A DNA stretch of 64,000 nucleotides from the human T2T-CHM13v2.0 reference genome, Homo sapiens. The notes under the pieces are model-generated. The model made no database searches and was not told where the DNA came from. It saw only the letters and a program-made list of their open reading frames with translations. The stretch spans positions 33,024,001 through 33,088,000 of the forward strand of contig CP086569.2 of assembly GCA_009914755.4 (NCBI GenBank). Direction: 5' to 3'. Of the stretch, positions 3,283 through 64,000 are shown piece by piece; position 1 is the stretch's first letter; every line of letters starts with the position of its first letter. The position numbers and the translations under genes are program-made.

Positions 3283-5697
<2,415 letters not shown>

Positions 5698-5976
5698 TTT
5701 TTTTTTAGACAGAGTCTTGTCCTGTTGCACAGGGTGGGGTACAATGGCGCCATCTTTGCTCACTGCAACATCTGCCTCAAGGGTCCAAGCGATTGGCCTC
5801 CCTCAGCCTCCCAGGTAGCTGGGACTACAGCAGCTGCCACCATGCCTAGCTAATTTTTTGGATTTTTAGTAGTGACAGCGTTTCACTGTATTGGCCAGGA
5901 TGGTCTTGATCTCTTCACCTTGTGATCCCCTTGCCTTGGCCTCCAAATTTGCTGGGATTACAGGCCTGAGCCAAGA
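5698..5976 (-). mobile_element. Alu copy, unit 3 (lacks the 16-bp internal duplication)
   Basis: Same Alu; reads gggactacagcagctgcc. Confidence 0.92.
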
Positions 5977-8101
5977 TCCATATTTTTTAAATGAAAAAAA
6001 ATTTCAAAGGTACTCTGCTTGGTACAATAATCAAATGTATAAACTGAGGAATAAAACATAACCATGAAACCTACTTATAACTGCATATGGAAAATACAGA
6101 GGATAATTTTTTAAATAACATATTTTGAAAGCCTTAACTAGTAATTTGAAGAGTTGGCATTTGAAAGGCCAGTATGAATATACCTTCAAAGCAGCAACAC
6201 AGGATCCCCATGAGAAAAAGCAAGCAAAGGGAAAATAAAAACACAAAGGTTCAATCTCTTCTGACCTTTGAAAGACACAGCACAGACAGTGGTCCTTAGG
6301 ACGAAGAGCAGGAGACCCCTAATTCCGTCACCATGGCGATAGGGCATAAACATTGCTGGGTGAGGGCACAATCCACATTGTGAGGTCCAACTGCTGCTAG
6401 GAAGACAGGAGTGCTTTTACATAGACCGAAAGGTCATTGAAGGCTCAGAGTTTTGTTTCAAGAACTGAATCCCAAGCCCACACGTTATTAGGCTGCACTT
6501 CTTAAAACAAGTTATGAGATGGGAAAAAGGGCACCCACAAACATACGTATACATTATGTATATAATAATATACAGTATCATATATTTAATATATATAACC
6601 TATGTATAATATTGTTTTACATCCTGCATCTTATGTTATGTATATTGTATAAAATATAGTAATTGATAATATATAAGTTTTATATTTATACAATATGACA
6701 TATAGTATATATTATAATTTATGACATATATAATATATGTTATATATCATATATAGAATATATTATACGGTTAATATACGTATTAAATATAAATTATACA
6801 TTATATATATTATATATAATATATCTGTTATATATAATACCCATTATGCATAATATATATATTATGTCTACGTTATATATAGTATAAAACAACATATAAT
6901 AATATATAATAGTATATATAAAATGCGACATATAATATATATTATATTTTATAACATATGTAATATATATTATATATTATATATAATACGTTGTATGTAT
7001 AATACCTATATTAAATATATATTATATGACTATGTTATTAATTACATGTCACATGTGTTATATATTATATATTTTACATAGAATATACCGGTTACATACA
7101 ATATATACTATGTTACCTATAATGTATAATTTATTACATGTAAAATAAAGAATGCAATATATTATGTATAATTTATAATATACAATATGTGGAATGAGAT
7201 ATATATAACATATAATATATGATATATGATATACAGTATATGATATATAACATACAATATATGATTCCTAATATATATGGTATACAATATATATTTTATG
7301 ATATGTATTCTATATGTTTTATATTCTGTTATATATAACTATTTGAAATTATATATAACTGTATAATATTTTATGTAAATATGTAATATAATATATATAA
7401 CTATATAATATATTATATATAACTATATATTATGTTATATACACTTTTATAACATAATTTACATAAAATATCATAATATAATATATATTATATTATTTCA
7501 TATTACATAATATATATTACATATCACCCAATATAACTAACATACATAATATTATAATATAGATTATATTATGTTATATGAAATATCATATATATCATGT
7601 ATCATATATTCTATAATATATATTACACATTATAAAATATGTATGTTGTCTATTATGTGATATATATAACTCTATATATAATTATATTATTATACATATA
7701 ACTAGATAAACATGTAATTCTACATATTTTCATTTATAATATGTAGAATTATATAATCATATATAATTATTTATATTCTATAAAAAATTTTATCATTATA
7801 TAAATTATAATATATAAAAATTATAATATGTACTACAAATATATATATTATATATCATATATGATATAGTACCTTTGTTATATATCATAATACATATAAA
7901 TGTGTATTATGTTATCTATAATTATATAATTTCATATATAAGATGTATAATATGTATCATATATTATATATGTTATGTAATATATATAGTATATATAAGA
8001 TGACACAGGATAAATATTATATACTATGACATATAAAATATATGAGGTTATATGTTACATATAAGGCATAGCACATAACATGTAATATATACCATATATA
8101 A
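5698..8101. repeat. Repeat unit 3 (2404 bp; transitional subtype; lacks the 16-bp intra-Alu duplication)
   Basis: Reads gggactacagcagctgccacc instead of gggactacaccacactgggactacaccagctgccacc. Mixes agagtc and acatctgcc (edge-like) with ggggtaca (core-like). Confidence 0.88.
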
Positions 8102-54120: not shown

Positions 54121-55173
54121 TCCATATTTTTTAAATGAATAAAAATTTCAAAGGTACTCTGCTTGGTACAATAATCAAATATATAAACTGAGGAATAAAA
54201 CATAACCATGAAACCTACTTATAACTGCATATGGAAAATACAGAGGATAATTTTTTAAATAACATATTTTGAAAGCCTTAACTAGTAATTTGAAGATTTG
54301 GCATTTGAAAGGCCAGTATGAATATACCTTCAAAGCAGCAACACAGGTTCCCCTTGAGAAAAAGCAAACTCAGAGAAAATGAAACCACAAAGGCTCAATC
54401 TCTTCTGACCTTTGAAAGACACAGCACAGACAGTGGTCCTTAGGACGAAGAGCAGGAGACCCCTAATTCCGTCACCATGGCGATAGGGCATAAACATTGC
54501 TGGGTGAGGGCACAATCCACATTGTGAGGTCCAAGTGCTGCCAGGAAGACAGGAGTGCTTTTACATAGACCGAAAGGTCATTGAAGGCTCAGAGTTTTGT
54601 TTCAAGAACTGAATCCCAAGCCCACACGTTATTAGGCTGCGCTTCTTAAAACAAGTTATGAGATGGGAAAAAGGGCACCCACAAACATACGTATACATTA
54701 TGTATATAATAATATACAGTATCATATATATAATATATATAACCTATGTATAATATTGTTTTACATCCTGCATCTTATGTTATATATATTGTATAAAATA
54801 TAATAATTGATAATATATAAGTTTTATATTTATACAATATGACATATAGTATATATTATAATTTATGACATATATAATATATGTTATATATCATATATAG
54901 AATATATTATACGGTTAATATACGTATTAAATATAAATTATACATTATATATATTATATATAATATATCTGTTATATATAATACCCCTTATGCATAATAT
55001 ATATATTATGTCTATGTTATATATAGTATAAAACAACACATAATAATATATAATTGTATACATAAAATGCGACATATAATATATATTATATTTTATGACA
55101 TATGTAATATATATTATATATTATATATAATACGTTGTATGTATAATACATATATTAAATATATATTATATGA

Positions 55174-55346
55174 CCTATATTAAATATATATTATTTATAT
55201 ATATTTATTATATATTTAATATATATTATATATAATATAAATATATTTAATATATATAATATATATTAAATATATATTATATGACCTATATTAAATATAT
55301 ATTATATAATATATATTTATAATAATATAAATATATATTATATGTA
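55174..55346. repeat. Unit-specific palindromic AT-rich insertion or local amplification
   Basis: atattaaatatatattat(atgacc) alternates with its inverted copy atatttaatatatattat/ataatatatattaaatat. It is absent from the equivalent position in all other units. Confidence 0.8.
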
Positions 55347-56384
55347 ATGTTATTAATTACATGTCACATGTGTTATATATTATATATTTTACATAGAATA
55401 TACCGGTTACATACAATATATACTATGTTACCTACAATGTATAATTGATTACATGTAAAATAAAGAATGCAATATATTATGTATAATTTATAATATACAA
55501 TATGTGGAATGTGATATATATAACATATAATATATGATATATGATATAGAGTATATGATATATAACATACAATATATGATACCTAATATATATGGTATAC
55601 AATATATATTTTATGATATGTATTCTATATGTAATATATTCTCTTATATATAACTATTTGAAATTATATATAACTGTATAATATTTTATGTAAATATGTA
55701 ATATAATATATATAAGTATATAATATATTATATATAACTATATATTATGTTATATATACTTTTATAACATAATTTACATAAAATATCATAATATAATATA
55801 TATTATATTATTTCATATTACATAATGTATATTACATATCACCCAATATAAGTAACATACATAATATTATAATATAGATTATATTGTGTTATATTAAATA
55901 TCATATATATCATGTATCATATATTCTATAATATATATTATATATTATATAATATGTATGTTGTCTATTATGTGATATATATAACTACATATATAATTAT
56001 ATTATTATACATATAACTAGATAAACATGTAATTCTACATATTTTCATTTATAATATAGAGAATTATATAATCATATATAATTATTTATATTCTATAAAA
56101 AATTATGTCATTATATAAATTATAATATATAAAAATTATAATATGTACTACAAATATATATATTATATATCATATATGATATAGTACCTTTGTTATATAT
56201 CATAAAACATATAAATGTGTATTATGTTATCTATAATTATATAATTTCATATATAAGATGTATAATATGTATCATATATTATATATGTTATGTAATATAT
56301 ATAGTATATATAAGATGACACAGGATAAATATTATATACTATGACATATAAAATATATGAGGTTATAATATATATCATATATAA

Positions 56385-58804
<2,420 letters not shown>

Positions 58805-59099: not shown

Positions 59100-60924
59100 T
59101 CCATATTTTTTAAATGAAAAAAAATTTCAAAGGTACTCTGCTTGGTACAATAATCAAATGTATAAACTGAGGAATAAAACATAACCATGAAACCTACTTA
59201 TTACTGCATATGGAAAATACAGAGGATAATTTTTTAAATAACATATTTTGAAAGCCTTAACTAGTAATTTGAAGAGTTGGCATTTGAAAGGCCAGTATGA
59301 ATATTCCTTCAGAGCAGCAACACAGGTTCCCCATGAGAAAAAGCAAACTCAGGGAAAATGAAACCACAAAGGTTCAATCTCTTCTGACCTTTGAAAGACA
59401 CAGCACAGACAGTGGTCCTTAGGACGAAGAGCAGGAGACCCCTAATTCCGTCACCATTGCGATAGGGCATAAACATTGCTGGGTGAGGGCACAATCCACA
59501 TTGTGAGGTCCAACTGCTGCCAGGAAGACAGGAGTGCTTTTACATAGACCGAAAGGTCATTGAAGGCTCAGAGTTTTGTTTCAAGAACTGAATCCCAAGC
59601 CCACACGTTATTAGGCTGCGCTTCTTAAAACAAGTTATGAGATGGGAAAAAGGGCACCCACAAACATACGTATACATTATGTATATAATAATATACAGTA
59701 TCATATATATAATATATATAACCTGTATATAATATTGTTTTACATCCTGCATCTTATATTATATATATTGTGTAAAATATAATAATTGATAATATATAAG
59801 TTTTATATTTATACAATATGACATATAGTATATATTATAATTTATGACATATATAATATATGTTATATATAATATATAGAATATATTATACGGTTAATAT
59901 ACGTATTAAATATAAATTATACATTATATATATTATATATAATATATCTGTTATATATAATACCCATTATACATAATATATATATTATGTCTATGTTTTA
60001 TATAGTATAAACCAACATATAATAATATATAATTGTATATATAAAATGTGACATATAATATATATTATGTTTTATGACATATGTAACATGTATTATATAT
60101 TATAGATATTACGTTGTATGTATAATACCTATATTAAATATATATTATATGACGATGTTATTAATTACATGTCACATATGTTATATATTATATATTTTAC
60201 ATGGAATATACCGGTTACATATAATATATACTATGTTACCTATAATGTATAATTTATTACATGTAATATAATGAATGTCATATATTATATATAATTTATA
60301 ATATACAATATGTGGAATGTGATATATATAACATATATGATATATGATATAAAGTATATGATATATAACATACAATATATGATACGTAATATATATGGTA
60401 TACAATATATATTTTATGATATGTATTCTATATGTTTTATATTCTGTTATATATAACTATTTGAAATTATATATAACTGTATAATATTTTATGTAAATAT
60501 GTAATATAATATATATAACTATATAATATATTATATATAACTATATTTTATGTTATATATACTTTTATAACATAATTTACATAAAATATAATAATATAAA
60601 ATATATTATATTATTTCATATTACATAATATATATTCAATATCACCCAATATAAGTAACATACATACTATTAAAATATAGATTATATTATGTTATATTAA
60701 ATATCATATATATCATGTATCATATATTCTATAATATATATTATGCATTATATAATATGCATGTTGTCTATTATGTGATATATATAACTATATATATAAT
60801 TGTATTATTATACATATAACTATATAAACATTTAATTCTATATATTTTCATTTACAATATATAGAATTATATAATCATAATTATTTATATTCTATAAAAA
60901 ATTATATCATTATATAAATTATAA
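58805..60924. repeat. Repeat unit 25a (about 2120 bp; distal about 250 bp of its AT-rich block missing)
   Basis: Alu, non-Alu segment and about 1.3 kb of the AT-rich block are present, ending at aaattatatcattatataaattataat. It then joins directly onto the end of a non-Alu segment. Confidence 0.8.

Positions 60925-64000
<3,076 letters not shown>

What the first reader, a model, noticed from the sequence alone, without database searches (positions are those of the whole stretch)
55150..55360. Palindromic AT-rich local amplification (about 173 bp) that could form a hairpin or cruciform
The motif atattaaatatatattatatgacc is present once in every unit. In unit 23 it has been expanded into alternating direct and inverted copies: atattaaatatatattat ... 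atatttaatatatattat ... ataatatatattaaatat ... atattaaatatatattatatgacc. This creates a nearly pure AT palindrome. Palindromic AT-rich repeats are established hotspots for double-strand breaks and rearrangement in human DNA; the PATRRs at the t(11;22) breakpoints are the known example. An inverted-repeat expansion inside an already unstable array is a plausible fragility point. It lies in the structurally most disturbed part of the array, next to the deletions at 49.1 kb and 56.37 kb.
Basis: partly seen in the sequence, partly recalled or inferred. Interest (0 to 1): 0.5.

Follow-up and report, generated by a model that had tools for sequence, protein, structure and literature searches.

The report
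AT-rich palindrome cluster in DYZ2 satellite
One copy of a human 2.4-kb heterochromatic satellite repeat (HSat1B/DYZ2 type) carries a private 171-bp, almost pure A/T insertion made of local direct and inverted copies of an 18-base motif; it forms several short hairpins but is far too short and imperfect to count as a PATRR-like breakage hotspot, so it is an ordinary satellite length variant.

Summary
The insertion is real. Between two conserved flanks the distance is 46 nt in 24 other units of the window and in about 27 public copies, but 217 nt here (net +171 bp, 97.7% A+T). It contains four exact and two near-exact copies of ATATTAAATATATATTAT, three inverted-like copies, and a 45-bp exact direct repeat. 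It also holds the longest perfect inverted repeats of the 64 kb, with arms of 26, 18, 17 and 14 bp. It is the best-folding 221-nt stretch in the window (about -41 kcal/mol, z = -5.2 on both strands).

It is not one palindrome. The best whole-region symmetry is 82-nt arms at 74%, and a permissive self-reverse-complement score barely exceeds dinucleotide shuffles. The motif is itself 78% self-complementary, so "inverted" copies differ from direct ones by 1-4 bases.

The array is human HSat1B (DYZ2-type, modal unit 2,420 bp). Its AT-rich part is published as highly length-variable, and its peripheral units are published as more diverged. The insertion sits in such a diverged flank. The neighbouring deletions map elsewhere in the unit.

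Best reading: a passive local duplication and template-switch product with modest hairpin potential. PATRR membership fails on length and symmetry. Interest is low.

The parts
55132..55359 (+). Site between the conserved flanks ACGTTGTATGTA (starts at 55132) and GTTATTAATTA (55349-55359). The start-to-start distance is 217 nt here against 46 nt in every other unit.
   Evidence: About 27 public HSat1B copies also have 46 nt.
55177..55347 (+). The net 171-bp insertion, 97.7% A+T. Its exact placement is ambiguous by a few bases because of the repeats. It is private to this unit.
   Evidence: The junction 26-mer is absent from two public collections.
55150..55194 (+). First copy of a 45-bp exact direct repeat. 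It contains the junction ATGAC|CTATATT of a 25-bp tandem duplication, with a 2-nt AC microhomology.
   Evidence: D 45, offset 111.
55261..55305 (+). Second copy of the 45-bp exact direct repeat, 111 nt downstream of the first.
55209..55276 (.). 68-nt palindrome with 26-bp perfect arms (55209-55234 / 55251-55276) and a 16-nt spacer. It is the longest perfect inverted repeat in the window. Hairpin energy is -16.3 kcal/mol.
55241..55275 (.). Alternative, overlapping palindrome with 17-bp perfect arms and a 1-nt spacer (-8.6 kcal/mol).
55292..55319 (.). Palindrome with 14-bp perfect arms and no spacer. One motif copy is followed directly by its own reverse complement.
55304..55343 (.). Palindrome with 18-bp perfect arms and a 4-nt spacer (-10.8 kcal/mol, z = -5.5).
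56385..56680 (-). Context only: the antisense Alu-derived part of the same repeat unit. It identifies the array as primate HSat1B/DYZ2-type.
   Evidence: Sequence read; sub-threshold hit to mir-1268, which I read as Alu-derived (own knowledge); published unit description.

Best explanation
The window is a human HSat1B (DYZ2-type) satellite array. Its units are 2,420 bp: an AT-rich part, an ancient Alu fragment and a GC-richer part.

In one unit, inside the more diverged flank of the array, the AT-rich part gained 171 bp by local, self-templated copying around an 18-nt quasi-palindromic motif, ATATTAAATATATATTAT. The steps visible in the sequence are:
- a 25-bp tandem duplication with a 2-nt microhomology;
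- a later duplication that left a 45-bp exact repeat 111 nt apart;
- short inverted copies laid directly next to their templates, with zero to four bases between the arms.

This is the footprint expected from replication slippage plus strand or fold-back ('snap-back') template switching.

The product is a cluster of short perfect A/T palindromes. These can fold into 28-68-nt hairpins whenever the DNA is single-stranded, and they might extrude small cruciforms under torsional stress. I consider it a passive mutational product with no function. Its likely consequence is only some further local length instability, not PATRR-type chromosome breakage.

Shown: the insertion, its privacy to this unit, its repeat anatomy, its folding potential and the identity of the satellite. 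Inferred: the copying mechanism, the order of events and the lack of biological effect.
For: Identity of the array:
- The modal unit is 2,420 bp, equal to the published 2,420-bp DYZ2 consensus length.
- The unit is tripartite with an antisense Alu.
- A central unit is about 99% identical over 2.4 kb to HSat1B-type contaminant contigs in unrelated bacterial assemblies. This is a known phenomenon.

The insertion is derived:
- 24 in-window units, about 27 public copies and diverged subfamily copies (85-88% identity) all have the short form.

The insertion is self-templated:
- It has a 45-bp exact direct repeat and a 25-bp duplication junction that keeps the canonical ACCT.
- A copy-parse of the insert needs 13 phrases against 19.4 +/- 1.1 for shuffles.
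- No donor above about 85% identity exists elsewhere in the window.

Inverted copies sit next to their templates: 14-bp arms with no spacer, 17 with 1 nt and 18 with 4 nt.

Folding: the region is the lowest-energy window of the 64 kb, z = -5.2 on both strands, whereas the canonical site has z = 0.13.

Context:
- The AT-rich part of DYZ2 is 'highly variable in length', and divergent units accumulate at array peripheries.
- HSat1B is enriched in inverted repeats.
- Perfect 16-28-bp-arm A/T palindromes recur in other HSat1B copies.
- Snap-back and loop-out synthesis is documented to create inverted and direct templated insertions (PMC5728401; PMC11724301, abstract only, listed).
Against: - The mechanism cannot be read uniquely. 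The motif is 14/18 identical to its own reverse complement, so an 'inverted' copy can differ from a direct copy by a single base.
- Allowing inverted copies improves the parse only from 15 to 13 phrases, about as much as it does for shuffles.
- The pure-A/T filler segments (55195-55260, 55306-55343) cannot be traced to a specific template.
- Documented templated insertions are mostly 5-34 bp, so 171 bp needs several rounds.
- No reads were available to validate the assembly at this position.
- Absence from public contaminant contigs is weak evidence of rarity, because those contigs mostly represent the majority form.
- Y-chromosome versus acrocentric origin is not determined.
Confidence: 0.72

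Rival explanations
1. One reading: the insertion is a PATRR-like palindromic AT-rich repeat. It extrudes a cruciform, is cleaved at its centre, and acts as a fragility and rearrangement hotspot that helped to disturb this part of the array.
For: It is >90% AT. It has the strongest folding potential of the window. It holds the longest perfect inverted repeats. Indels cluster within about 12 kb of it.
Against: - It is not a near-perfect spacer-less palindrome: 82-nt arms at 74%, and the whole-region symmetry score is 112 against 99.5 +/- 5.5 for shuffles.
- Its perfect elements are only 28-68 nt, whereas PATRRs are 190-600 bp.
- Even the symmetric ~190-bp PATRR17 does not extrude at physiological salt, and a 9-nt spacer greatly reduces extrusion.
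- The neighbouring deletions break at a different place in the unit.
- Those deletions coincide with a general substitution gradient typical of array edges.
Confidence: 0.08
2. The insertion arose by direct duplication only. It is a small AT-rich minisatellite-like expansion by replication slippage, plus a few point changes. The inverted symmetry is a by-product of a motif that is itself nearly palindromic.
For: - The motif is 78% self-complementary, and the copy at 55212 differs from a direct copy by one base.
- A direct-only parse is already far better than shuffles: 15 phrases against 20.9 +/- 1.1.
- TRF sees the tract as degenerate 2-, 9- and 11-nt A/T repeats.
Against: - Perfect 26-bp arms occurred in 0 of 500 shuffles.
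- Perfect arms of 14-18 bp sit with spacers of 0-4 nt directly beside their templates. Direct copies of the motif pair perfectly over only a 10-nt core (read from the motif).
- No regular period exists: motif spacing is 20-36 nt.
Confidence: 0.15
3. Assembly or sequencing artefact: the 171 bp do not exist in the genome. They were produced by mis-assembly or consensus error in an extremely AT-rich, repetitive region.
For: The block is seen only once in the window and in none of the public copies sampled. Satellite arrays are hard to assemble.
Against: The block is highly structured, with a 45-bp exact repeat and clean junctions that keep canonical flanks. This is unlike typical consensus errors, which from my own knowledge are small homopolymer or dinucleotide indels. 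The flanking sequence is in register on both sides. The neighbouring units also carry private variants, as expected for real diverged units.
Confidence: 0.05

Closest known systems
Length variation of the AT-rich portion of DYZ2/HSat1B repeat units (Hallast et al., bioRxiv 10.1101/2022.12.01.518658; Rhie et al., bioRxiv 10.1101/2022.12.01.518724)
   Same: The unit length matches (2,420 bp) and so does the tripartite composition. The AT-rich part is described as highly variable in length. Divergent units accumulate at array peripheries. HSat1B is noted as enriched in inverted repeats. The insertion is an instance of this.
   Different: The cited papers, as far as I read them, do not describe this particular 171-bp block or its palindrome cluster. 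Its junction is absent from the public contigs I could scan.
PATRRs (PATRR11, PATRR22, PATRR17, PATRR8) at constitutional translocation breakpoints
   Same: Extremely AT-rich, with inverted symmetry and predicted hairpin or cruciform potential.
   Different: PATRRs are single, nearly perfect, spacer-less palindromes of about 190-600 bp. This is a 171-bp patchwork of 28-68-nt palindromes mixed with direct repeats. Its overall arm complementarity is 74%. There is no evidence of breakage.
Templated insertions from synthesis-dependent or polymerase-theta-type end joining and fold-back priming (snap-back and loop-out; PMC5728401, PMC2943611, PMC11724301)
   Same: The inserted DNA copies the immediate neighbourhood in direct and inverted orientation. 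Inverted copies abut their templates, and one junction has a 2-nt microhomology.
   Different: Documented events are mostly 5-34 bp (PMC11724301, abstract listed). Here 171 bp would need several rounds. No break is documented, and replication slippage with template switching would give the same footprint.
AT-rich minisatellite expansions at rare fragile sites FRA16B and FRA10B (my own knowledge; general statement in PMC5295012)
   Same: An A/T-rich motif of a few tens of bases is amplified locally and can form hairpins.
   Different: Those alleles are regular 33-42-bp tandem repeats expanded to kilobases. Here there are seven irregularly spaced copies in 171 bp.
Short inverted repeats as local mutability or instability motifs (PMC5737083; Lu et al. 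2015, as cited in PMC5295012)
   Same: Perfect arms of 14-26 bp with spacers of 0-16 nt fit this class.
   Different: That class is very common genome-wide and has small effects. Nothing here shows an effect.

Membership tests
HSat1B / DYZ2 satellite | Tandem unit of about 2.4 kb (published consensus 2,420 bp) | tested here: met
   Anchor spacing is 2,420 bp in most units. Consensus length.
HSat1B / DYZ2 satellite | Composite unit: extremely AT-rich part, ancient truncated AluY and a GC-richer part | tested here: met
   GC profile. Antisense Alu read at 56385-56680, followed by about 550 bp of unique sequence. Published description.
HSat1B / DYZ2 satellite | High identity between units, with more diverged units at the array periphery | tested here: met
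   10-21 substitutions per unit centrally, 41-53 and then about 8% toward the 3' end; compare.
HSat1B / DYZ2 satellite | Sequence identity to reference HSat1B, and chromosomal location (Yq12 or acrocentric short arms) | tested here: inconclusive
   No human reference was available. Indirectly, the unit is about 99% identical to contaminant contigs in bacterial assemblies of the kind reported as HSat1B contamination. The chromosome cannot be assigned.
PATRR | >90% A+T | tested here: met
   167 of 171 bases are A or T.
PATRR | Several hundred bp long (about 190-600 bp) | tested here: not met
   The insertion is 171 bp, and the perfect palindromic elements are 28-68 nt. PATRR sizes.
PATRR | Single, nearly perfect palindrome without a central spacer | tested here: not met
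   The best region-wide inverted repeat has 82-nt arms at 74%. The permissive palindrome score is 112 against 99.5 +/- 5.5 for shuffles. The fold splits into three or four hairpins.
PATRR | Rearrangement breakpoints at the palindrome centre; cruciform extrusion shown experimentally | not testable with these tools
   Within the window, the neighbouring deletions break elsewhere in the unit. Plasmid assays and population data are needed.
AT-rich minisatellite fragile sites (FRA16B/FRA10B type) | Regular tandem repeat of a 33-42-bp AT-rich unit expanded to kilobase scale | tested here: not met
   Motif copies are spaced 20-36 nt apart irregularly. TRF finds only degenerate 2-, 9- and 11-nt periods. 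Total size is 171 bp.
Short inverted repeat / cruciform-type non-B motif | Perfect complementary arms of at least about 10 nt with a short spacer | tested here: met
   Arm/spacer pairs of 18/4, 17/1, 14/1, 14/0 and 26/16. Hairpin energies range from -5.6 to -16.3 kcal/mol.
Templated-insertion scar (snap-back or loop-out synthesis, template switching) | The insert is composed of direct and inverted copies of the adjacent sequence, with microhomology at the junctions | tested here: inconclusive
   Parse of 13 phrases against 19.4 +/- 1.1 for shuffles, and inverted copies abut their templates. There is a 2-nt AC microhomology at the 25-bp duplication junction. However, the motif is quasi-palindromic, the filler segments are untraceable, and the size exceeds typical events.

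The most novel reading that the evidence does not exclude
The block is a 'proto-PATRR' caught at an early stage. It would be a scar of one or a few break-repair or fork-restart events in which fold-back synthesis on a quasi-palindromic A/T motif laid down alternating direct and inverted copies. That would show how long palindromic AT-rich repeats are born from ordinary AT-rich satellite sequence, and this unit would be measurably more length-unstable than its neighbours.
Probability: 0.1. Interest if true: 0.4.

Novelty: new member of a known kind. Interest (0 to 1): 0.15.

Why it matters
It matters little as it stands. It documents one more private length variant in the AT-rich part of a DYZ2-type unit, a region already known to vary in length.

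Three modest points of value:
- It is a clean worked example that whole-region 'palindromes' in nearly pure A/T sequence are largely a composition effect. Only perfect short-spacer arms and shuffle-controlled scores carry information.
- Its unique junction k-mers (for example TATTATATGACCTATATTAAATATAT) give a single-copy marker inside an otherwise unmappable satellite. This could be used to track this unit in pedigrees or pangenomes.
- If intermediates were found, it could illustrate how inverted A/T repeats grow.

Tried and rejected
- Donor search. BLAST of the block against the rest of the window found nothing above about 85% identity. The best hits are the paralogous sites, anchored by the shared motif.
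- A 111-bp duplication of the upstream flank. The 83% alignment mismatches at every G/C of the canonical sequence. The filler segment alone scores no better there (35) than at unrelated places in the unit (35-36). I rejected it as unsupported.
- One large palindrome. The permissive self-reverse-complement score is not clearly above shuffles or other AT-rich windows. Rejected.
- Other copies or haplotypes. The junction 26-mer has 0 matches in genome contigs and metagenome contigs. The flank anchor gave only canonical copies.
- Rfam scan of 52-58 kb. It gave only a sub-threshold mir-1268 hit (33.9 bits against a gathering score of 83) inside the Alu. There is no RNA family.
- TRF. It gives no 25- or 111-nt period, only degenerate 2-, 9- and 11-nt A/T periods.
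- Protein, structure and phage/plasmid tools were not used. The region is non-coding primate satellite.

Full report
**What the window is.** The 64 kb is about 26 head-to-tail copies of a 2.42-kb unit. Anchor motifs recur every 2,420 bp. Each unit has about 1.6 kb of extremely AT-rich sequence, an antisense Alu-derived segment (for example 56385-56680) and about 550 bp of GC-richer unique sequence.

This matches the published description of DYZ2 = HSat1B. [quoted passage not shown] Hallast et al. give a final consensus of 2,420 bp. A central unit is about 99% identical over its whole length to 2.4-kb contigs found in unrelated bacterial assemblies such as Mycobacterium, Senimuribacter and Actinomadura, and in metagenomes. 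That is the HSat1B contamination reported in the T2T-Y paper. I therefore treat the window as human HSat1B. I cannot say whether it comes from Yq12 or an acrocentric short arm.

**Checking the observation.** The conserved flanks ACGTTGTATGTA and GTTATTAATTA are 46 nt apart in 24 other units and 217 nt apart at 55132-55349. A MAFFT alignment of all units shows a single 171-bp insertion in this unit.
- The 18-mer ATATTAAATATATATTAT occurs once at this site in normal units and four times here. Two further direct-like and three inverted-like copies have at most 2 mismatches.
It occurs only here, twice, because 'atgacc' is the junction of a 25-bp tandem duplication.
- The insert has 4 G/C in 171 nt.

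**Is the inverted symmetry more than chance?** At short range, yes.
- The longest perfect inverted repeats of the window all lie in the insert. They are 26-bp arms with a 16-nt spacer (55209-55276), 18-bp arms with 4 nt (55304-55343), 17-bp arms with 1 nt (55241-55275), and 14-bp arms with 1 and 0 nt.
- No dinucleotide shuffle out of 500 reaches a 26-bp arm. Six arms of at least 14 bp are seen against 0.7-1.1 expected.
- The region is the lowest-energy 221-nt DNA fold of 1,595 windows: -42.4 kcal/mol against -34.0 for the best window outside it.
- Against shuffles, z = -5.24 on the + strand and -5.22 on the - strand. The canonical site has z = 0.13.

At the scale of the whole block, no.
- The predicted fold is three or four separate hairpins.
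- The best region-wide inverted repeat has 82-nt arms at 74% complementarity.
- A permissive self-reverse-complement alignment scores 112, against 99.5 +/- 5.5 (maximum 118) for shuffles. Other AT-rich windows reach 104-107.

So there is a cluster of short perfect palindromes, not one 173-bp palindrome. The motif is also 14/18 identical to its own reverse complement. Its first 11 bases are ATATT-A-AATAT, so the 'inverted' copy at 55212 differs from a direct copy by one base.

**Anatomy and likely origin.**
- A 45-bp exact direct repeat lies at 55150-55194 and 55261-55305, offset 111 nt. Each copy contains the 25-bp duplication junction ATGAC|CTATATT. That junction joins the canonical 3' side to the canonical 5' side over a 2-nt AC microhomology, and the internal copies keep the canonical ACCT.
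- Inverted copies abut their templates. 55306-55319 is the exact reverse complement of 55292-55305 with no spacer, and that segment in turn pairs with 55326-55343.
- A greedy copy-parse of the insert from the sequence to its left needs 13 phrases, against 19.4 +/- 1.1 for shuffles. With direct copies only it needs 15, against 20.9 +/- 1.1.
- No donor exists elsewhere in the window. The pure-A/T filler segments cannot be traced.
- The short form is ancestral. It is found in all other units, in about 27 public copies and in diverged subfamily copies.

I infer iterative local duplication by slippage, with some strand or fold-back template switching. Snap-back and loop-out synthesis is documented to generate exactly such direct and inverted templated insertions, though usually much shorter ones (PMC5728401; PMC11724301, abstract listed). 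The order of events and the share of truly inverted copying remain uncertain.

**The fragility interpretation.** PATRRs are several hundred bp, >90% AT, nearly perfect and spacer-less (PMC4940405). Cruciform propensity depends on length and central symmetry. A 9-nt spacer with four mismatches greatly reduces extrusion, and the symmetric ~190-bp PATRR17 does not extrude at physiological salt (PMC1851657). The present block meets only the AT-richness criterion.

The 'disturbed neighbourhood' is better explained by position in the array.
- Substitutions per unit are 10-21 between 7 and 48 kb and 41-53 between 48 and 60 kb. Identity to the central units falls to 92-94% in the last 4 kb.
- Hallast et al. 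report that divergent units accumulate toward the periphery of DYZ2 arrays, and that the AT-rich part is highly variable in length.
- The neighbouring deletions are 244 bp after 49106, 32 bp after 56365 and about 1.1 kb near 61 kb. They do not break at the insertion. All three remove the same segment at the AT-rich/Alu junction.
- Perfect A/T palindromes with 16-28-bp arms also occur in other public HSat1B copies, and HSat1B is noted as enriched in inverted repeats.

**Verdict.** This is a real, private, 171-bp A/T insertion in one HSat1B unit. It was made by local self-templated duplication and has genuine but small-scale hairpin potential. It is an ordinary example of known length variation in this satellite and is not a member of the PATRR class. 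Rarity could only be tested weakly: the junction has no match in two public collections. Read-level validation was not possible. Interest is low.

Noticed in passing
window 49106, 56365 and about 60925-61140: Three deletions in three different units (244 bp, 32 bp and about 1.1 kb) all remove the same consensus segment at the junction of the AT-rich part and the Alu (tatgttacatataaggcatagcacataacatg). This may be a recurrent deletion site in the unit (BLAST boundaries).
   Followed up: partly
window 1-64000: Divergence gradient. Units between 7 and 48 kb differ from the array consensus by 10-21 substitutions. Units at 2-7 kb differ by 33-37 and units at 48-60 kb by 41-53. The last 4 kb is only 92-94% identical. 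The window therefore runs from a homogenised core into a diverged flank or sub-block boundary.
   Followed up: yes
window 60484-60589 (homologous positions in other units, e.g. about 55676-55781): Each unit carries a quasi-palindrome of about 106 nt that includes G/C positions (ATATTTTATGTAAATATGTAAT...ATAACATAATTTACATAAAATAT). In the diverged unit it gives the second-best self-reverse-complement score of the window.
   Followed up: partly
window 33604/36024 and 43284/45704: Adjacent unit pairs share private substitutions (for example gtaaaatacct and acattgtatg). This suggests recent duplications of single units or two-unit blocks.
   Followed up: no
window about 5818 (unit 4635-7033): This unit lacks a 16-bp segment (ctgggactacaccaca) that is present in the Alu part of the consensus of the other units. 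In the unit read that stretch looks like a tandem duplication.
   Followed up: no
loci L001, L003, L008, L021, L032, L043 and others: Contigs deposited as bacterial genomes or metagenomes (for example Mycobacterium sp. LZSC01000004.1 and Actinomadura cremea BMRF01000089.1) are about 99% identical to the satellite unit over 2.1-2.5 kb. This is human HSat1B contamination.
   Followed up: yes
L002:53-113: A low-coverage contaminant contig has a perfect A/T palindrome with 28-bp arms and a 5-nt spacer, about 50-100 nt upstream of the same site. That stretch aligns poorly with the canonical unit. It could be another private palindromic variant near this site or an assembly chimera.
   Followed up: partly
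loci L016, L030, L034, L038, L041: A diverged HSat1B-like subfamily (85-89% identity for the copies aligned) reads ...ATACATATATTA(T/A)ATATATATTATATGTCTATG... at this site. It shares the ACAT seen 5' of the insertion in the window's unit (canonical ACCT), but it has no expansion.
   Followed up: partly
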